Assembly (NCBI GenBank): GCA_963768575.1
Contig: CAVYIJ010000007.1
Span: forward strand, 45,945 to 109,944
DNA: 64,000 nt
DNA from: an uncultured Halobacteria archaeon
GTDB taxonomy: Bacteria; Pseudomonadota; Gammaproteobacteria; UBA9214
Direction: 5' to 3'
Part shown: positions 5,220 to 13,198 of the stretch, in pieces
Numbering within the stretch: the stretch's first letter is position 1
Layout of the letters: every line of letters begins with the position of its first letter
Position numbers and translations under genes: made by a program
The notes under the pieces: model-generated
The model's input: the letters and a program-made list of their open reading frames with translations, nothing else
What the model was told of the DNA's origin: nothing
Databases searched by the model: none

Positions 5220-5617
5220 GGACAGCCATACCCGTCCAACGTGTTCCGCGCCCGGCCCGCGTGCAGGATTTTGCAGCGCCGTTGACCGGTTCTTTCACTC
5301 GAACTCCTTCAAATGACCATGTAACGACGGTCTGTCAATTTATTTAACACACATTTTAAAGCGGCTATAAGCTCATATCCCTCTGTTTTAAATAGATAAT
5401 ATCTGGCAAACGGCTAATTCGCACACTGATTGTCGGCACTCCCCGGGATTGTAATGACTGTATTTTTTACAGCCGCCCCGCTCCTTCTTTGACGCGTACG
5501 CCAGAAAAACAGCTAACTCACTCAATTGTAAACTTTATTTCCGTTGAGCATGGATATTGCATAAATTCACGATCAGGAGTCATACCCAGGGAAAAACAAC
5601 AGCTGGTGGCAATAACA

Positions 5618-6601
5618 ATGGATGATATGACAGCCGAAGCGGCTCGGGAAATACCAACCAGAGTAAACGGACACACCCTCATCGCCGCCAGCACATGCAT
5701 GCAGGGTGTGCTGCGCACCATCAACAAAATATCGAACAACGATGCCCCGGCAATCATTACCGGCGAAAGCGGCACCGGCAAGGAACTGGCCGCGCGCGCC
5801 ATACATGAACAATCCGCGCGCAGGGATGGCGCCTTCATTGCAGTCAATTGCGGGTCCCTGCCCGCCGGCCTGATCCAGTCTGAATTGTTCGGCCACATGA
5901 AGGGCGCGTTTACCGGCGCACACAGTGACCGGATCGGCAGGATCGAAGCGGCGGACAAGGGAACGATCTTTCTTGATGAAATCGGTGATCTGCCCGTCGA
6001 TCTGCAAGTCAACCTGCTGCGTTTCCTGCAGGAAGGCGTCATCGAGCGTGTCGGCAGCGCGGATTCGATACCGGTTGATGTGCGCGTACTGGCAGCCACA
6101 AACATCGACCTGGAGGATGCCATAAAGCAGGGACGGTTTCGGGAAGATCTTTACTACCGCCTGAATGTATTGCCGGTCGAGTTGCCGCCCTTGCGTGAGC
6201 GAGACAAGGATATCGAACAACTCGCCATGCATTTCTTTGCGGAATTCACCCGCAACAAAAAGACCAGGGCGCGTGGGTTCAGCACTTCAGCGCTTTCGGC
6301 AATGAATGCCTATCACTGGCCCGGCAACGTCCGTGAACTGATCAACCGCGTTCGCCGGGGCATTGTGATGTGCGACGGTCCGCAGATTACACAGGAAGAC
6401 CTTGAACTGAACGGCAACATCCACGAGCATCCCGCGAAGACCCTGGCCGAGGCGCGCCGCGAATCGGAGCGCAGCGCGATTAAGGAAGCGCTGATGTGCT
6501 GCCGCAACAACGTCTCCGAGGCAGCACGCCGGTTGAGAGTCTCGAGGGTTACCCTGTACCGCCTGATTGACAAACACGGCCTGAAAAGAAGCCTGGTATA
6601 A
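5618..6601 (+). CDS. Sigma54-dependent enhancer-binding protein (AAA+ and Fis HTH) with no N-terminal sensor domain
   Basis: GESGTGKE, ELFGHMKGAFTGA, FLDEIGDL, FREDLYYRL, WPGNVREL, C-terminal HTH; start could be 5489 (TTG) or 5618 (ATG). Confidence 0.93.
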   Translation: MDDMTAEAAREIPTRVNGHTLIAASTCMQGVLRTINKISNNDAPAIITGESGTGKELAARAIHEQSARRDGAFIAVNCGSLPAGLIQSELFGHMKGAFTGAHSDRIGRIEAADKGTIFLDEIGDLPVDLQVNLLRFLQEGVIERVGSADSIPVDVRVLAATNIDLEDAIKQGRFREDLYYRLNVLPVELPPLRERDKDIEQLAMHFFAEFTRNKKTRARGFSTSALSAMNAYHWPGNVRELINRVRRGIVMCDGPQITQEDLELNGNIHEHPAKTLAEARRESERSAIKEALMCCRNNVSEAARRLRVSRVTLYRLIDKHGLKRSLV

Positions 6602-6732: not shown

Positions 6733-7985
6733 GTGAAAACGATGTCGAATCGAGTGATCAATAATTCTGTCCTGTTTGGCCTGTTACTGTGTTCCGGCCA
6801 GGTGCTCAGCGCCGACGGGGGCGTGGATACAAGACTGGATGCGCTTGAGAAAGTCATTACAGAACAGGCAGATACATTAGAGCAGCAGCGCCGGGAGATC
6901 CGCCGGCTGCGCCAGTCCATCGACGGGACGTCTGCTACCAACAGGCAGGCGAGCGGCGAGGAGCTGCCCGTGTCGGGACTTGAAGGGATGCGCGCGGGAG
7001 CGGCCCCCACACCGGTCGGCCAGGCGCCTGAAGAGAAACGCAAGGCCCCTTCCAGCCTGCTGTCATTGCCCGAGGATGTGGGCGGCGTGTTGACCGCGCA
7101 GGGCAAGCTGGTGGTGGAACCGAGCACCTCGTTCTCCACTTCCCAGCTCAACCGCTTCACCTTTCGCGGTATCGAGATCATCGATACCGTCCTGATCGGC
7201 ATCGTGGATGCAGAGGATGTCGACCGTGATATGTACACCGCGACGTTGACCGGCCGCTACGGCCTGACCAACCGCATCGAGCTGGAAGCGAAGCTGCCGT
7301 ACATCTGGCGTGACGACCGGCTGACCGCAACCATCCCGAATGTCGCAGGCACGGACGTCGATGTATACACGAGACCAGGAAGGCAACGGCATCGGCGACA
7401 TCGAACTGGCCGCCCATTACCAGATCAACCAGGGCGCCAATGGCTGGCCCTTCCTGATCGGCAACCTGCGTTACAAGTCGACCACGGGTGAAGGTCCGTT
7501 CGATGTCACGCGCGATGCAGGCGGCATTGAGACGGAACTGGCAACCGGCTCCGGCTTTCACTCCGTCGAAGGCCAGCCTCACCGTGCTGTATCCGACCGC
7601 ACCGGCGGTACTGTTTGGCAACGTCGGTTATCTCTTCACCAAACAGGACAGTATCAACAAGATGATCGGCACCAATTACGTGGGGAATGTCGACCCAGGC
7701 GATGCCGTGCGTACGAGCTTCGGTATGGCGTATTCCGTGAACGAGCGCCTGTCCTTTACCCTCGGTTACAAGCATGATTTTATCTTTCAAACCGATACAG
7801 TTATTGGTAGCAGTCCGGCCAGTGCCGTGACAGTGCATCAGGCCGACCTCGACGTGGGCTCCTTTCTGTTCGGCTATGGTTTCCAGTTGACCCCGAAGCT
7901 GGGCATCAATCTAAACGTGGAAATAGGCGCTACGGACGATGCGCCCGATGCAGCGGTGACGGTGCGTCTCCCCTACAGCATCTAG
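6733..7985 (+). CDS. fapF: FapF-like outer-membrane beta-barrel exporter, interrupted by two apparent +1 frameshifts (~7365, ~7571)
   Basis: Signal peptide, coiled coil LDALEKVITEQADTLEQQRREIRRL, TLTGRYGLTNR, GIGD, ELATGSG, PAVLFGN, C-terminal IGATDDAPD..TVRLPYSI, matching FapF motifs; spread over ORFs 6733-7491, 7340-7777 and 7488-7985. Confidence 0.8.
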
Positions 7986-8427: not shown

Positions 8428-9111
8428 TTAGCGTGGTGTTGACGCAGCGCGGACTGAGCGACCCAGCGTCCCGGCGAACACCGAGTTGCGAGCAGCTTCG
8501 ACATACTCGGTGAAATTCCTTATGGTGATATCCACTTCGAGTTGATTGCTGAGATTCTGGTCGTTGCTGTTTGTGACCAGGGCGCTGACAATACTGTTCT
8601 GCGTCAGCTTTTCAAGCACCGCCGTAAAACCGTCCGAATTACCGATGATAATGCCACCTGTGGCATCCGCCAATCCGGCAAGGTCAACGCCAGGCAGCAG
8701 GTTACCGAGGGTTGTACCCGCCGTACCGCCAACCAGGTGAACCGGGGCGGCAATACCGGGATCGGTGGTAAGTACATTGCTGGTCTGGTCAAATCCACCG
8801 GACGTGTTCAGGGAGTAGACCGCTTCACGGATATAACCGTTTCCGGTAGTGCGCAGGTTCACGCCAAAGCTGACGTCCAGCCCTGCGACCCTGAGGCCAC
8901 CACGCATGTTTTCCATTTCGCCCTCTTCGAGTGCGCCGAACTGCTCCATCGCCGCGCCCGGATCGGCAAACCGGTCACCGTCCAGCCGGGTGGCGGACGC
9001 CGGCAGTGCGCTGCTGCTCGTCACAACCGGGAACAGCGCCGCAAGTAGCAGTAATCCCGTTAAACAAGCCCGGCTTTTGCACACGGTTGATGTGTATCGG
9101 TCGCGCGGCAT
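8428..9111 (-). CDS. FapE-like secreted accessory protein
   Basis: Signal-like N-terminus, LEEGEMENMRGG motif, Asn/Gln-rich C-terminal strand motif (ALVTNSNDQNLSNQLEVDITIRN); last gene after C39 peptidase. Confidence 0.6.
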   Translation of the reverse strand: MPRDRYTSTVCKSRACLTGLLLLAALFPVVTSSSALPASATRLDGDRFADPGAAMEQFGALEEGEMENMRGGLRVAGLDVSFGVNLRTTGNGYIREAVYSLNTSGGFDQTSNVLTTDPGIAAPVHLVGGTAGTTLGNLLPGVDLAGLADATGGIIIGNSDGFTAVLEKLTQNSIVSALVTNSNDQNLSNQLEVDITIRNFTEYVEAARNSVFAGTLGRSVRAASTPR

Positions 9112-9112
9112 A

Positions 9113-9898
9113 TTAACGACCCTGCTCGTTTCTGCCCGGCAGTGACAGGGTGAAGGAGCTAATACTTGATCGATCGACGCCCTCGGCGAGGGGGGAATCA
9201 GGCCAGCTGCGCCAGTCTTCTATCGCATTGAAATTCGCGCGCGCGACCTCGATATTGTTTTTTGCCGCCAGGATAGCGCCGTTCCACATGCCTTCGAAGA
9301 CTTCCCGGCTGACAACCGCCGTTCCGGCCGCCGGGTCGCCGACAAGTACGCGCTCACCCTCGATACCCTTGATGACGACGAAATGCTTGTAGCCCTTGGT
9401 ATTGATAACGGTGATGCCGGGAACCCCGATTTTCATGAACTGGTCCAGGGTCATTCGAAAACCGCCGGCATTCAGGCCGCGGCTGTCGAGGTAATGCTTC
9501 ATGTCGAGCATGGAAAAACCCTGGCTCTTTATCTTTTTCTTGTTACCCACCTTGAACATCGCCTCGAACACCTTTGCTTCGGGTGTCGGCATGTCGTAGT
9601 GGTAAGTCAGCAGGGTGGCCAGTGCCGCGGAACCACAGCTGTAGTCGTACTGTTGTTGTATGACCGTGTCCCAGCGTGCTTCCTTCTTGCTTTCCACCTT
9701 GAGCTTGAAATCACCCCCGCCAAAGCCGGGAATGGCCAGCGCGCCGGCATGCGCAGGAAAACAGCCCAGCTGGATGACTGCGAATATTGCCGGCAACAGA
9801 AATAACGAAGGCCTGGCAAGTGCCAGGCCGAATAGTCCAGTAATGGCAGACTTATTGCTGCCCTGTTTTTGTGTGAAAATGTTTTGCACAGCAAACAT
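9113..9898 (-). CDS. fapD: Stand-alone C39 family peptidase (FapD-like)
   Basis: QQYDYSCGSAALATLL (Cys), YKHFVV (His), VGDPAAG (Asp); hydrophobic signal; no fused ABC transporter. Confidence 0.88.
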   Translation of the reverse strand: MFAVQNIFTQKQGSNKSAITGLFGLALARPSLFLLPAIFAVIQLGCFPAHAGALAIPGFGGGDFKLKVESKKEARWDTVIQQQYDYSCGSAALATLLTYHYDMPTPEAKVFEAMFKVGNKKKIKSQGFSMLDMKHYLDSRGLNAGGFRMTLDQFMKIGVPGITVINTKGYKHFVVIKGIEGERVLVGDPAAGTAVVSREVFEGMWNGAILAAKNNIEVARANFNAIEDWRSWPDSPLAEGVDRSSISSFTLSLPGRNEQGR

Positions 9899-9920
9899 AC
9901 ACTAATTGTGATAACCAGTC

Positions 9921-10298
9921 TTATTGCAAGTTAATAGTGACGCCAATTGCATTGTTGACGGCGTTGTTGTTGCCTGTGACCACGTTGAACAGGCCGACAC
10001 CGCTGAACTCACCCAACGCACCTTCCGCGAAGCTGGCATTGCCGCTCGTCATCGTGCCGACATTGAAACTGCTGCCTGTGATGCTGGCACCCAGGTCCTG
10101 GTTGCTCTGCACGGTGATTGTGGTGCTGCCTTCACGTCCCCGCACGCCACCGAGATCATCACCCTCGATACTGGTGAAGTTGCCGAATGCCTCTGCAGTG
10201 GCCGGTTCCCCGGCGTATAACGGCCCGGCCGTGATCAGTACCATACTGCTGATGGCGGCCAGTACTACCTTCGAGATCGAACTGATTTTGTCCATCAT
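9921..10298 (-). CDS. Small secreted Fap-repeat protein (FapB-like candidate nucleator/minor subunit)
   Basis: Sec signal (PLYA), DDLGGVRG motif, C-terminal GNASFAEGALGEFSGVGLFNVVTGNNNAVNNAIGVTINL resembling the Fap repeat. Confidence 0.7.
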   Translation of the reverse strand: MMDKISSISKVVLAAISSMVLITAGPLYAGEPATAEAFGNFTSIEGDDLGGVRGREGSTTITVQSNQDLGASITGSSFNVGTMTSGNASFAEGALGEFSGVGLFNVVTGNNNAVNNAIGVTINLQ

Positions 10299-10415: not shown

Positions 10416-11900
10416 TTACAGACCGCCGTTGGTGGACACACCGCCGAATGAACCGATGTTCACTCCGCTGGCTGCACCGATCGACACGCCACCCAGGGTC
10501 CCGTTGTAGAGACCGGCTGATGCGTTGATGTTGGCGATACCACCGAGTACACCACCTGCGGTGCTAACGGTAGCCGTATCGGTGGCCAACTGGCCGCCGG
10601 AAGCAAGACCGCCATTACCACCGGATGCACCGCCACCGGCGTTGCCGCCGAAGCCGCCGAATCCGCCGGCGCCGCCGTCTGCACCATCAGCAGTGTTGGT
10701 GCCATTGTTGGTTTCACCACCAACTCCACCGTCACCACCGATCGCACCATTGGCATTGTTGTTGCCGTTGCTGGTGCCGCCACCATTGCCGCCGGCTCCC
10801 GCATTGGCCATGTTGCCGCCGTTGCTGGTGCCGCCACCGTTGGCGCCGTCACCGGCATCACCACCATTGGCATTGTTGCCGCCGTTGCTGGGTCCGCCGC
10901 CGTCACCGCCGTCACCGCCGTCGGCCGTTACAACGATATCACCACCGTCGCCGCCGCCGTCGCCGCCGCCGTCACCGCCACCCAGGTTGCTGCCGCCGTT
11001 ACCGCCGTTGGCATCACCTGAACCAGCTGCAACAGAGCCGCCGTAACCGCCTGCACCACCTTCACCACCGTCAGCATCGCCGTCGGTCGTGGTGATCATG
11101 CCGCCGTCACCGCCCTCGCTGCCGTAGGCATTACCGTAGCCTTTGGCTTTTCCACCTTCACCGCCATCGCCACCGTGACCGCCGTTGGCATCGCCGTAGG
11201 TGTCGATGTCACCACCATCGCCACCTTCATAGCCGTCACCGCCGTCAGCAAGACCGCCGTCACCGCCGTCACCGCCCGAATAACCGTCACCGCCATAGGC
11301 AGCACCGATATCGATGATGGACTCACCGGTTACAGTCGCATCCAGCGTCTGGTAGGAAATGACTTCCTTGATGGTGTTGAATGCCTCACTGTTGGCCTCG
11401 GCAGTTCCACCTAGACCACCCTCCGAGTGACCACCGAAACCACCATCGCCGCTATCGCTGCTCTGGGTGCTATCTGCAGTGCTGCCCTGGTCAGTGGTGT
11501 TGTCGTTGGTCTGAGTCGACCCGGTGTCTGCCAGATCACCACCATCACCACCTTCATCGCCACCACCGTTGCCCGATACAGCGTCATCGTTGGTCTGGAC
11601 TGAGGTGTTGTTATTGTTGCTGCTGGAGGTGCTATCGCCCGTGGCGTCGCCGCCATCGGCGCTTCCGCCGCTACCGCCCTCACCACCATCGGCGTTGGCT
11701 GTTGCAGTGGAATTGACGGTGTTGGACTGCCCACCGGACATCCCCACGTAACCGTTTAAAGTTTCAGCCGCTTGAGGTGCTTCATAGACCTGGCCACCGT
11801 TAGACAAATTGAACGAATTAACGGGGTTAGCCTGTGCACCTGTCGCTGTGAACATGCACATCGACACGGCTGAACTCACAAGTAGAGTTTTGAATTTCAT
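10416..11900 (-). CDS. Secreted Gly-rich (GGxGGx) putative fibre subunit B with Fap-like C-terminal repeat
   Basis: Sec signal AQA|NPVN; long GGD/GGN/GGA tracts; C-terminus GGIANINASAGLYNGTLGGVSI; RBS AGGAG. Confidence 0.85.
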   Translation of the reverse strand: MKFKTLLVSSAVSMCMFTATGAQANPVNSFNLSNGGQVYEAPQAAETLNGYVGMSGGQSNTVNSTATANADGGEGGSGGSADGGDATGDSTSSSNNNNTSVQTNDDAVSGNGGGDEGGDGGDLADTGSTQTNDNTTDQGSTADSTQSSDSGDGGFGGHSEGGLGGTAEANSEAFNTIKEVISYQTLDATVTGESIIDIGAAYGGDGYSGGDGGDGGLADGGDGYEGGDGGDIDTYGDANGGHGGDGGEGGKAKGYGNAYGSEGGDGGMITTTDGDADGGEGGAGGYGGSVAAGSGDANGGNGGSNLGGGDGGGDGGGDGGDIVVTADGGDGGDGGGPSNGGNNANGGDAGDGANGGGTSNGGNMANAGAGGNGGGTSNGNNNANGAIGGDGGVGGETNNGTNTADGADGGAGGFGGFGGNAGGGASGGNGGLASGGQLATDTATVSTAGGVLGGIANINASAGLYNGTLGGVSIGAASGVNIGSFGGVSTNGGL

Positions 11901-11920
11901 GACCTCTTCTCCTGTTCAGC

Positions 11921-13198
11921 TTAATTGCCGATGTTGACGTTGGAATGAGCGGAAATGGATACGCCACCCAGCGTCGCGTTGTACAGCCCGGAAGAAACGT
12001 TGATGTTGGCAATACCGCCGAACGTACCGGCAGCCGTAGTCACGTCAACCGCACCGGTTGTCAGCACACCACCGGTTGCGTCACCGCCGTTACCACCAGC
12101 ACCGCCGCCACCGCCTGCACCTGCTGTACCACCGTCACCACCGGCACCACCGGCACCCGCATTGGCGATGTTGCCGCCATTGTTGGTCGTACCGCCGCCA
12201 GCACCGTTACCGCCTGCAGCACCATCGGCAGTGTTACCGCCGTTGTCGGTCGTACCACCGGCACCGCCGTCTGCGCCATCAGCAACATTCGTGCCGTTAC
12301 CGCTTGTACCACCGGCACCGCCAGCGCCACCGTTACCGCCATCCGCAGCGTTGGTGCCGTTGTTCGGCGTACCGCCGTTACCGCCATTGCCGCCGTTACC
12401 GGCCACTGAATCACCGCCGTAGCCGCCATTGGCACTACCGTCGCCGGTGGCCGAACCGCCGGAGCCGCCCGAGCTGCCTTCACCGCCATCGGCATCGCCG
12501 CCGCTGACACTGATGGTGCCGCCGCTGCCGCCGTAACCGGCGTCTGCGTCACCCTTGCCCTTGGCATAACCGCCAGCACCGCCTTCACCGCCGTCGCCAC
12601 CGTTGGCATCGCCGTTGGTCGTGATGGTGCCGCCGTCACCGCCGTGGTCTCCGTCACCGCCATCGGCATCACCGCCGTGACCGCCATGGCCACCGGATGC
12701 ACCGTTACCGCCGGTTGCACCACCAATCGTGATGCTGGCACCGGTAATCTGGGCTTCCAGGGTCTGGTAGGAAATGACTTCCACGATATCGTTGAACGAC
12801 TCACTGTTGGCTGTTGCCGTGCCGCCAGCGCCGCCCGTGGAGTTGCCGCCTGTACCACCGGCACCGGCCGTGCTGGTCTGATTACTCGTGGCCGAATCGG
12901 TCTGGGTCGTGCCATTGGTGTTTGCCTGATCGGACTCAGCAGCACTGCTGTTGGCCTGATCACTGCTGTTGCTATTGCCGCTTGTGGCATTGCTAGAACC
13001 GCTTGCCTCACCACCGTCAGCATCTCCACCATCACTCGCGCTGCCGCCATAGGCATTCGCTGTGGCTGTTGAAGTTACGTCGTTGTGTTGACTACCTCCG
13101 AAATTGAACTTGTTAGTCGGGTTGGCAGATACGCCGCAGGCGTAACTGATGCCAATTGCCAGTGCTGACACCGTCAGCAGTTTCGTTTGCTTTTTCAT
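11921..13198 (-). CDS. Secreted Gly-rich (GGxGGx) putative fibre subunit A, paralog of 10416-11900
   Basis: Sec signal VSA|NPTN; shares STATANA, ANSE.FN.I.EVISYQTL.A..TG.SI and GGIANIN.S.GLYN.TLGGVSI blocks with the neighbour; RBS GAGGAG. Confidence 0.85.
   Translation of the reverse strand: MKKQTKLLTVSALAIGISYACGVSANPTNKFNFGGSQHNDVTSTATANAYGGSASDGGDADGGEASGSSNATSGNSNSSDQANSSAAESDQANTNGTTQTDSATSNQTSTAGAGGTGGNSTGGAGGTATANSESFNDIVEVISYQTLEAQITGASITIGGATGGNGASGGHGGHGGDADGGDGDHGGDGGTITTNGDANGGDGGEGGAGGYAKGKGDADAGYGGSGGTISVSGGDADGGEGSSGGSGGSATGDGSANGGYGGDSVAGNGGNGGNGGTPNNGTNAADGGNGGAGGAGGTSGNGTNVADGADGGAGGTTDNGGNTADGAAGGNGAGGGTTNNGGNIANAGAGGAGGDGGTAGAGGGGGAGGNGGDATGGVLTTGAVDVTTAAGTFGGIANINVSSGLYNATLGGVSISAHSNVNIGN

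What the first reader, a model, noticed from the sequence alone, without database searches (positions are those of the whole stretch)
8890..10170. Double-glycine bacteriocin-type leader motifs inside two secreted accessory proteins: candidate C39 substrates
After their Sec signals, the FapE-like protein has L-E-E-G-E-M-E-N-M-R-G-G and the 125-aa protein has I-E-G-D-D-L-G-G-V-R-G-R. Both fit the C39-recognised leader pattern with hydrophobics at -12/-7/-4, acidic at -8 and Gly at -2 (Gly-Gly in the first). These two genes flank the C39 peptidase, whose Cys/His/Asp triad is intact. This suggests two-step processing: signal peptidase, then periplasmic C39 cleavage or recognition before export. 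The large Gly-rich subunits lack a convincing copy.
Basis: partly seen in the sequence, partly recalled or inferred. Interest (0 to 1): 0.65.

Follow-up and report, generated by a model that had tools for sequence, protein, structure and literature searches.

The report
Second leader tag behind export signal
Two secreted proteins flanking a periplasmic cysteine protease carry, behind their ordinary export signal, a conserved bacteriocin-style "double-glycine" tag, also present in Pseudomonas FapE, which gives a testable cut site for a biofilm-fibre protease (FapD type) whose target is still unknown.

Summary
The 227-aa protein has L61-E-E-G-E65-M66-E-N-M69-R70-G71-G72. The 125-aa protein has I44-E-G-D-D48-L49-G-G-V52-R53-G54-R55. 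Each motif lies 25-30 residues behind a Sec-type signal peptide, and the two genes flank a signal-peptide-bearing C39 peptidase with intact Gln82/Cys88/His172/Asp188.

Both match the double-glycine leader register: hydrophobic at -15/-12/-7/-4, acidic at -8, Gly at -2. The motif is the most conserved part of both families. In a 31-sequence FapE-like alignment the only invariant columns are R70 and G71. Nearly all complete sequences among 148 cluster representatives carry it. A matrix built from FapE-like leaders ranks these two proteins 1st and 3rd of 3 million positions in this genome, and the FapF-like channel's linker 7th.

Pseudomonas FapE has the same tag (…EMNDAELAELRGR|FVMPGR), and a cut there would explain the published mass-spectrometry gap at its N-terminus. 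The large Gly-rich subunits lack the tag.

Most likely reading: signal peptidase, then recognition and probably cleavage by the FapD-type peptidase. Cleavage itself is not shown, and Arg/Gln at -1 is non-canonical. The window's 227-aa protein is FapE-like by position and leader module only. The window's channel gene carries two frameshifts.

The parts
8428..9111 (-). 227-aa secreted protein, FapE-like by position: Sec-type signal, about 28-aa propeptide, beta-rich domain, C-terminal helix
   Evidence: ORF. No Pfam or NCBIfam hit even at E=10. AF2 model: residues 1-72 pLDDT 47-67, helices 51-56 and 63-69, confident beta domain from residue 73. No PDB fold match.
8896..8949 (-). Leader tag of the 227-aa protein, residues 55-72 MEQFGALEEGEMENMRGG (F-15, L-12, E-8, M-7, M-4, R-3, G-2, G-1); predicted cut after G72
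   Evidence: R70 and G71 are the only invariant columns of the 31-sequence superfamily alignment.
9113..9898 (-). Stand-alone C39 cysteine peptidase with its own N-terminal signal sequence (FapD/FilB type); Gln82, Cys88 (nt 9635-9637), His172 (9383-9385), Asp188 (9335-9337)
   Evidence: Pfam PF03412 8.9e-22. NCBIfam FapD 1.1e-40 and FilB 1.1e-33, both below cut-off. Aligned to LahT150, PCAT1 and ComA. Q/C/H/D kept in 172 of 173 relatives.
9921..10298 (-). 125-aa small secreted subunit: Sec-type signal, about 26-aa propeptide, core ITVQSNQDLGASITG... and C-terminal GVGLFNVVTGNNNAVNNAIGVTINLQ
   Evidence: 36 homologues. AF2 monomer model is disordered, pLDDT 51.7.
10134..10187 (-). Leader tag of the 125-aa protein, residues 38-55 FGNFTSIEGDDLGGVRGR (F-18, F-15, I-12, D-8, L-7, V-4, R-3, G-2, R-1); predicted cut after R55
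   Evidence: In the family: L/M at -7 in 47/47, G/A at -2 in 47/47, E/D at -8 in 43/47, F at -18 in 45/47.
10416..11900 (-). 494-aa Gly-rich fibre subunit with a Sec signal but no leader tag
11921..13198 (-). 425-aa Gly-rich fibre subunit with a Sec signal but no leader tag
6733..7985 (+). FapF/FilC-like outer-membrane channel gene (coiled coil, linker, barrel), split over three frames in this assembly
   Evidence: NCBIfam FapF and FilC partial hits. Frames. Orthologues are single-frame. Related metagenome contigs lack one base at 7367 and one at 7573.
6946..6999 (+). Leader-like motif in the channel's periplasmic linker, residues 72-89 QASGEELPVSGLEGMRAG|AAPTPVGQAP; candidate third site
   Evidence: PSSM rank 7 of about 3 million positions. 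h(-12)...[LM](-7)...R(-3)[GA](-2) in 11 of 14 orthologues; absent in the three that lack the coiled coil.

Best explanation
The 227-aa and 125-aa proteins are made as pre-pro-proteins.

1. A Sec signal peptide takes them to the periplasm and is removed by signal peptidase (inferred from sequence).
2. This exposes an 18-30-residue amphipathic propeptide ending in R-G-G or R-G-R. The propeptide is a double-glycine-type leader: its -10..-4 helix and its -12/-7/-4 hydrophobic residues would dock in the groove of the neighbouring free periplasmic C39 peptidase. That would place Gly(-2) and residue -1 at Cys88/His172 (inferred by analogy with the LahT150 and PCAT1 complexes).
3. The peptidase most probably cuts after G72 and after R55. 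This would license the mature proteins for export through the FapF-like channel (inferred).
4. The bulk Gly-rich subunits carry no tag and are not processed.

The same tag is a superfamily-wide feature of FapE-type proteins, including Pseudomonas FapE (...ELAELRGR|FVMPGR). It is therefore the likely long-sought FapD site.
For: - Register match to L(-12)xxxE(-8)L(-7)xxh(-4)xG(-2), as defined for ComA, LahT150 and PCAT1 (PMC6363468, PMC6959990), in both window proteins.
- FapE-like family, 24 sequences: -7 L/M 24/24, -4 M/L/I 22/24, -3 R 24/24, -2 G 24/24, -12 L/I/V 23/24.
- Of the 148 best cluster representatives (2,456 clusters at E<=1e-3), 145 matched the motif pattern, a few at spurious upstream sites. 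Among the 138 tabulated: -7 L/M 131, -12 I/L/V 122, -2 G 132 or A 6, -1 G 87, R 36, K 7.
- R70 and G71 are the only invariant columns of the 31-sequence alignment.
- The otherwise unrelated 125-aa family has the same tag.
- PSSM ranks 1, 3 and 7 of 3 million positions all fall in this locus.
- 18 of 19 sampled FapD-like loci have an adjacent tagged FapE-like gene.
- 172 of 173 peptidases keep Q/C/H/D.
- AF2: leader flexible with a helix at 63-69, confident fold beginning at residue 73.
- The tag persists in loci whose channel lacks the coiled coil (L008, L010, L014).
- Pseudomonas FapE carries the tag, ending at residue 40. In Rouse 2017 Supplementary Data 6 the first FapE peptide seen starts at residue 72. 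The ideal tryptic leader peptide was never seen, and residues 47-96 form one 50-aa tryptic peptide.
- The FapD C38A mutant abolishes secretion (PMC5557850).
Against: - No cleavage or binding has been measured for any member.
- Characterised C39 domains cut only after GG, GA or GS, and their cleft is narrow (PMC6959990). Arg, Gln or Lys at -1 (the 125-aa family and true FapE) would need a wider S1 site.
- In the 125-aa family -12 is Ser in 20 of 47 sequences, with Val at -13, so the register is looser there.
- The Pseudomonas MS gap is compatible with, but not specific for, a cut at residue 40.
- In this assembly the channel gene is frameshifted twice, so the system may be inactive here.
- Signal peptides were judged by eye.
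Confidence: 0.6

Rival explanations
1. The tag is recognised but not cut. The C39 protein acts as a periplasmic chaperone or adaptor that holds the leader and hands the tagged proteins to the FapF-like channel, in the manner of the C39-like domain of HlyB. Its proteolytic activity is aimed at another target, for instance the channel's linker.
For: - Non-canonical P1 residues (R/Q/K) in many members.
- Rouse 2017 and the 2018 review consider both a chaperone role and FapF cleavage.
- The channel linker carries a similar motif.
Against: - Catalytic Q/C/H/D is kept in 172 of 173 relatives.
- FapD C38A blocks secretion.
- Gly at -2 is near-invariant, which fits an active-site requirement better than simple helix docking.
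- The FapE leader peptide is absent from Pseudomonas lysates.
Confidence: 0.17
2. The tag is a secretion or assembly signal read by something other than the peptidase. It could dock on the FapF coiled coil or plug, or prevent premature folding or polymerisation. Another protease might remove it, or it might stay on.
For: - The amphipathic helix spacing also suits coiled-coil docking.
- Rouse 2017 suggests the FapE N-terminus may be a FapF targeting sequence.
Against: - The tag is fully kept in loci whose channel has no coiled coil (L008, L010, L014).
- The tag co-occurs with the C39 gene in 18 of 19 loci.
- The exact double-glycine register, including Gly(-2), is unexplained by coiled-coil docking.
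Confidence: 0.1
3. The motif is only a structural element, such as a helix cap and turn before the first beta strand, or a chance resemblance.
For: - The bare pattern occurs at near-random frequency genome-wide (31 against about 25).
- F82 and G83 downstream are also conserved.
Against: - The same 18-residue module precedes two unrelated folds and a channel linker.
- hhalign finds it to be the only segment shared between the window-type and true FapE families.
- AF2 leaves it unpacked.
- The PSSM ranks cluster in one locus.
Confidence: 0.04

Closest known systems
Double-glycine (GG) leader peptides cut by C39 peptidase domains of PCAT/AMS ABC transporters (ComA/ComC, LahT, PCAT1/CtA, CvaB/colicin V)
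   Same: - Same leader register: hydrophobic -15/-12/-7/-4, Glu -8, Gly -2, and Gly -1 in the 227-aa protein.
- Leader length of 18-30 residues, with a predicted helix at -10..-4.
- The partner enzyme is a C39 peptidase with the Q/C/H/D set.
   Different: - The leader lies behind a Sec signal peptide, not at the N-terminus of a cytoplasmic precursor.
- The peptidase is a free, signal-peptide-bearing periplasmic protein, not a domain of an ABC exporter, and there is no ABC transporter in the locus.
- Arg at -3 is invariant.
- Position -1 is often Arg, Gln or Lys.
- The cargo is 100-300-aa fibre-associated proteins.
Pseudomonas Fap functional-amyloid system (fapABCDEF; Dueholm 2010/2013, Rouse 2017)
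   Same: - Periplasmic C39 peptidase (FapD-like) followed by a secreted accessory protein and a coiled-coil 12-strand-type channel (FapF-like).
- FapE carries the same leader module.
- FapD activity is required for secretion, and the FapE N-terminus is missing in MS.
   Different: - No FapA, FapB or FapC repeats. The fibre proteins are 425- and 494-aa Gly-rich proteins plus a 125-aa mini-subunit.
- The channel gene is convergent and sits next to a sigma-54 activator.
- All matches to the FapD, FapE and FapF equivalog models fall far below cut-off or are absent.
- The tag ends in RGG here and in RGR in Pseudomonas.
Acinetobacter Fil pilus system (FilA-F; FilB C39 peptidase, FilC FapF-like channel, FilA = DUF6160)
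   Same: - A stand-alone C39 peptidase paired with a FapF-like channel.
- FilA-like DUF6160 proteins in two Fil-type loci start, directly after the signal peptide, with ...AMDDAALEAVTGQ|TG, which has L at -7, V at -4, G at -2 and Q at -1.
   Different: - No R at -3 in the Fil type.
- Additional FadL-type FilD and an OmpA domain on FilC.
- The window's peptidase scores 117 bits against a cut-off of 475.

Membership tests
Double-glycine leader / C39 substrate | Gly at -2 and Gly/Ala/Ser at -1 | tested here: inconclusive
   227-aa protein: G71-G72, met. 125-aa protein: G54-R55, so -1 is not met. Families: -2 is G/A in all; -1 is G, R, K or Q.
Double-glycine leader / C39 substrate | Hydrophobic residues at -4, -7 and -12 (and -15), with Glu/Asp at -8 | tested here: met
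   Both window proteins fit, and the position tables of 24, 47 and 138 sequences agree. The consensus is taken from PMC6363468 and PMC6959990.
Double-glycine leader / C39 substrate | Leader at the N-terminus of a cytoplasmic, Sec-independent precursor | tested here: not met
   Both leaders follow a Sec-type signal sequence. Met55 of the 227-aa protein is not conserved: position -18 is F, Y or L in relatives.
Double-glycine leader / C39 substrate | Processing by a C39 domain fused to an ABC exporter (PCAT) | tested here: not met
   The peptidase is a 261-aa stand-alone protein with its own signal sequence. ABC-transporter models match only its peptidase part.
Double-glycine leader / C39 substrate | Cleavage after the motif | not testable with these tools
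   Only indirect evidence exists: the published Pseudomonas FapE peptide map starts at residue 72.
Peptidase family C39 | Pfam PF03412 above gathering score, with the Gln/Cys/His/Asp catalytic set | tested here: met
   77.8 bits against a cut-off of 22. Q82/C88/H172/D188 align to LahT150 and PCAT1.
FapD (NCBIfam NF058616 equivalog) | Score above the 330-bit cut-off | tested here: not met
   139.3 bits; related, but not an equivalog.
FapE (NCBIfam NF058559 equivalog) | Match to the FapE model | tested here: not met
   No hit at E<=10, whereas RG[RK]-class relatives score 1e-26 to 1e-33. hhalign of window-type against true FapE aligns only 33 residues, the leader plus first hairpin, at 79% probability and E 1.6e-5.
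FapF (NCBIfam NF058560 equivalog) | Score above the 700-bit cut-off on an intact gene | tested here: not met
   Two fragments score 47.8 and 66.7 bits. The gene is split over three frames.
Fil pilus system (FilB NF050078, FilC NF050079) | Scores above the 475- and 630-bit cut-offs | tested here: not met
   116.8 and 47.3 bits.

The most novel reading that the evidence does not exclude
A Sec signal peptide followed by a periplasmic double-glycine-type leader (h-x2-h-x2-h-x3-E-[LM]-x2-h-R/T-G-[GRQK]) is a general two-part address code. It would mark the priming or accessory cargo of all FapD/FilB-FapF/FilC outer-membrane secretion systems: Fap amyloid, Fil pili, this Gly-rich fibre and others, totalling more than 2,400 protein clusters. 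The same peptidase would also cut the channel's own linker at a copy of the tag, so that one protease both matures the cargo and switches the pore.
Probability: 0.35. Interest if true: 0.8.

Novelty: new variant of a known kind. Interest (0 to 1): 0.6.

Why it matters
FapD-type peptidases are essential for Pseudomonas functional-amyloid secretion. Their substrate has nonetheless been 'unclear' since 2017, and a 2026 preprint still treats it as undefined. Rouse et al. stated that Fap proteins lack a canonical C39 recognition sequence.

The analysis here shows that FapE-type proteins do carry the canonical leader helix and Gly(-2). The tag ends in RGG in this lineage and RGR in Pseudomonas, and unrelated small subunits and some channels share it. 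That turns an open question into a single-residue prediction: cut after G72 and R55 here, and after R40 in Pseudomonas sp. UK4 FapE.

It would also extend double-glycine processing from cytoplasmic ABC exporters to a periplasmic, post-Sec step. Finally, it gives a sequence signature for finding cargo of this widespread but little-studied secretion route, and a defined site for blocking Fap biofilm fibres.

Tried and rejected
- **Alternative start at Met55.** Starting the 227-aa protein at Met55 would give a classical N-terminal 18-aa leader. Rejected: the Met is not conserved (F/Y/L at -18), and the upstream signal sequence is conserved in all orthologues.
- **Leader in the Gly-rich subunits.** None found in about 20 orthologues.
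- **Bare-pattern statistics.** Not significant on their own, so they were replaced by the PSSM ranking and conservation.
- **AF2 of the 125-aa protein.** pLDDT 51.7, uninformative.
- **Foldseek of the 227-aa model against the PDB.** No match at E<=0.001.
- **Family names for the two proteins.** Pfam and NCBIfam give none.
- **The listing of cluster members for organism names.** No names returned.
- **First attempt to reach Pseudomonas FapE.** The true-FapE alignment returned only Xanthomonadales. The search succeeded using the published UK4 peptides as the query.
- **Close relative's contig (L043).** It ends before the channel gene.
- **Complex prediction of peptidase plus leader.** Not possible with the tools: single chains only, and the adjacent genes are in different frames.
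- **Mapping the PCAT1 groove residues A55 and I59.** They map onto the conserved GFSMLDMKHYLD helix, but the alignment is too uncertain by one residue to use.
Full report
**What is there.** The minus strand carries an operon of five genes:
- a 425-aa Gly-rich protein (13198-11921);
- a 494-aa Gly-rich protein (11900-10416);
- a 125-aa protein (10298-9921);
- a 261-aa C39 peptidase (9898-9113);
- a 227-aa protein (9111-8428).

Convergent on the plus strand lie a FapF/FilC-like outer-membrane channel gene (6733-7985) and a sigma-54 activator (5489-6601).

The peptidase matches Pfam Peptidase_C39 (77.8 bits, cut-off 22). It matches the NCBIfam models FapD (1.1e-40) and FilB (1.1e-33), both far below their equivalog cut-offs. 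The 227-aa, 125-aa and Gly-rich proteins match no Pfam or NCBIfam model, even at E=10.

**The observation.** Both motifs are present as described.
- 227-aa protein: residues 61-72, LEEGEMENMRGG, nt 8896-8931.
- 125-aa protein: residues 44-55, IEGDDLGGVRGR, nt 10134-10169.

Each lies 25-30 residues after a Sec-type signal sequence (…VVTSSSA|LPAS and …GPLYA|GEPA), judged by eye. The peptidase has its own signal sequence. Its Gln82/Cys88/His172/Asp188 align with the oxyanion Gln and catalytic triad of LahT150 (6mpz), PCAT1 and ComA.

**Is it more than chance?**
- *The bare pattern is common.* [LIVMF]xxx[ED][LMIV]xx[LMIVF]xGG occurs 31 times in 12,575 ORFs, against 20-29 after shuffling.
- *A stricter …RG[GRQK] pattern is rarer.* It occurs 6 times against 0-3 after shuffling, and two of the six are these genes.
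- *A position matrix ranks the locus at the top.* It was built from 143 leaders of FapE-like cluster representatives and scanned over about 3.03 million positions of this genome. It ranks the 227-aa protein 1st (26.7 bits). The 125-aa protein, which was not part of the training family, ranks 3rd (18.1). A site in the FapF-like channel ranks 7th (15.2).

**Conservation.**
- *Locus architecture.* Fifteen gammaproteobacterial loci (Aidingimonas, Marinobacter, Motiliproteus and MAGs) share the whole architecture.
- *227-aa orthologues.* Every one has h-x3-[ED]-[LM]-x2-h-R-G-G followed by [FL]x[FVIL][AG]G…FG.
- *Superfamily alignment.* It holds 31 sequences: window type, short types and true FapE. 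The only invariant columns are R70 and G71; F82 and G83 are near-invariant.
- *Profile search.* Against 1.84 billion representatives it finds 2,456 clusters at E<=1e-3. Of the 148 best, 145 matched the motif pattern, a few at spurious upstream sites. Among the 138 tabulated: -12 I/L/V 122, -8 E/D 102, -7 L/M 131, -4 M/L/I 117, -2 G 132 or A 6, -1 G 87, R 36, K 7.
- *125-aa family.* Among 47 distinct sequences: F at -18 in 45, L/V at -15 in 39, E/D at -8 in 43, L/M at -7 in 47, R at -3 in 40, G/A at -2 in 47, and Q or R at -1 in 44. Downstream of the tag the two families are unrelated.
- *Gly-rich subunits.* About 20 orthologues run from AxA|NPxNKF directly into the Gly-rich region, with no tag.

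**Comparison with characterised leaders.** The ComA-derived consensus is L(-12)xxxE(-8)L(-7) before GG, GA or GS. In the LahT150 and PCAT1 complexes residues -10..-4 form a two-turn helix. That helix places -4, -7 and -12 in a hydrophobic groove, and the narrow cleft explains the Gly-Gly requirement (PMC6363468, PMC6959990).

The window proteins match this register. The AlphaFold2 model of the 227-aa protein (mean pLDDT 76.9) leaves residues 1-72 at low confidence, with a helix at 63-69 (that is, -10..-4). The confident beta domain starts at residue 73, immediately after RGG.

**Link to the peptidase.**
- In a sample of 301 genomes of the class, 39 have a FapD-like gene.
- In 18 of the 19 loci fetched, the adjacent FapE-position gene carries the tag: RGG in window-like and short types, RG[RK] in true Fap types.
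- Across all loci fetched, 172 of 173 peptidases keep Q/C/H/D. The exception, L006, looks disrupted.
- The tag is retained in loci whose channel lacks the coiled coil (L008, L010, L014). This argues against a coiled-coil docking role.

**Link to Pseudomonas.** RG[RK]-class proteins match NCBIfam FapE at 1e-26 to 1e-33. The window type does not. hhalign between the two families aligns only the 33-residue leader plus first hairpin (79% probability, E 1.6e-5). 'FapE-like' is therefore true for position and this module only.

I used the published Pseudomonas sp. UK4 FapE peptides as a query and fetched FapE genes from 43 Pseudomonas genomes. In the 13 examined, these genes read signal peptide …AYA|SS-AFKPIEMNDAELAELRGR|FVMPGRIVSFGIVMSTTW…. 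This gives M-12, E-8, L-7, L-4, R-3, G-2 and R-1, ending at residue 40 in UK4 numbering.

Rouse et al. 2017 report that FapD C38A abolishes secretion, and that FapE alone lacks N-terminal peptides over 'the first ~70 residues'. They also state that Fap proteins have no canonical C39 sequence. Their Supplementary Data 6 shows the first FapE peptide at residue 72.

A cut after R40 explains this. The leader would give an ideal tryptic peptide (SSAFKPIEMNDAELAELR) that was never seen. Residues 41-46 are only six residues long, and residues 47-96 form a single 50-residue tryptic peptide. This is compatible with the cut, not proof of it.

**Extension beyond the finding.** The FapF-like channel has, between its coiled coil and the PVGQAP linker, the sequence EELPVSGLEGMRAG|AAP (nt 6946-6999). 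Eleven of 14 orthologues have h(-12)…[LM](-7)…R(-3)[GA](-2) at this place, for example VAGAELRDLRGG|G in L006. The three without it also lack the coiled coil. Rouse et al. speculated that FapD might cut FapF in this linker.

Fil-type loci (FilA = DUF6160, FilB, FilC, FilD) show …AMDDAALEAVTGQ|TG directly behind the signal peptide. Some true Fap operons have extra small tagged ORFs upstream of fapA.

**Caveats.**
- No cleavage has been measured.
- Arg, Gln or Lys at -1 is outside known C39 specificity.
- In this assembly the channel gene is split over three frames. Related sediment-metagenome contigs lack one base at 7367 and one at 7573. This is either an assembly error or a recent pseudogene.

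**Earlier notes of this scan** describe the same tag next to FapD-type peptidases in at least 28 other genomes. They also claim it for Pseudomonas FapE and for the channel. I reached the same points independently and tested both claims here.

**Verdict.** The kind is known (double-glycine leader and C39 peptidase; the Fap system). The variant, a post-Sec periplasmic leader with an R-G-[G/R/Q] end, is to my knowledge not described in the papers searched. It gives a precise, testable site.

Noticed in passing
window 6733-7985 (+): The FapF-like channel gene runs in three frames, switching near 7367 and 7573. All 14 orthologues are single-frame, and related metagenome contigs (runs X1, X2) lack one base at each site. 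This is either a MAG indel error or a recent pseudogene.
   Followed up: partly
window 6946-6999 (+): The channel's periplasmic linker carries a leader-like motif, QASGEELPVSGLEGMRAG|AAPTPVGQAP. It ranks 7th of about 3 million positions genome-wide with the FapE-leader matrix, and is conserved in 11 of 14 orthologues that have a coiled coil.
   Followed up: partly
window 10416-13198 (-): Both Gly-rich subunits start their mature part with a conserved NPxN(K/S)FN… directly after the signal-peptidase site, and end in GGIANINxSxGLYNxTLGGVSI. Their core strands resemble the 125-aa protein split by a Gly-rich insert, as another note of this scan says.
   Followed up: partly
L008 and L010 (Aidingimonas), about 16.5-18.2 kb: The same 18-kb stretch holds a second, true Fap-type module about 6 kb downstream of the window-type operon. 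It has a FapD-like gene and a FapE with …LSDDELAGMRGR|FIDGK.
   Followed up: no
L039 8249-8668 (-), L038 8267-8581 (-), L010 14229-14819 (+): Small extra ORFs upstream of fapA in true Fap-type operons carry leader-like motifs: …LNDDQLGQVRGL|F, …VEDSELHEISGK|G and …DSDTLSQVRGR|Y.
   Followed up: no
L131 5383-6402 (+), L129 9442-12697 (-): FilA-like DUF6160 proteins of Fil-type loci begin, right after the signal peptide, with …AMDDAALEAVTGQ|TG. This has the same register but T-G-Q in place of R-G-G.
   Followed up: partly
L006 5855-6424 (+): This is the one FapD-like gene of 173 without His and Asp in the aligned positions. It looks truncated or frameshifted in this groundwater MAG.
   Followed up: no
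window 9921-10298 (-): AlphaFold2 predicts the 125-aa subunit as essentially disordered when monomeric (pLDDT 51.7 with 37 sequences). This is in keeping with a subunit that folds only on assembly.
   Followed up: no
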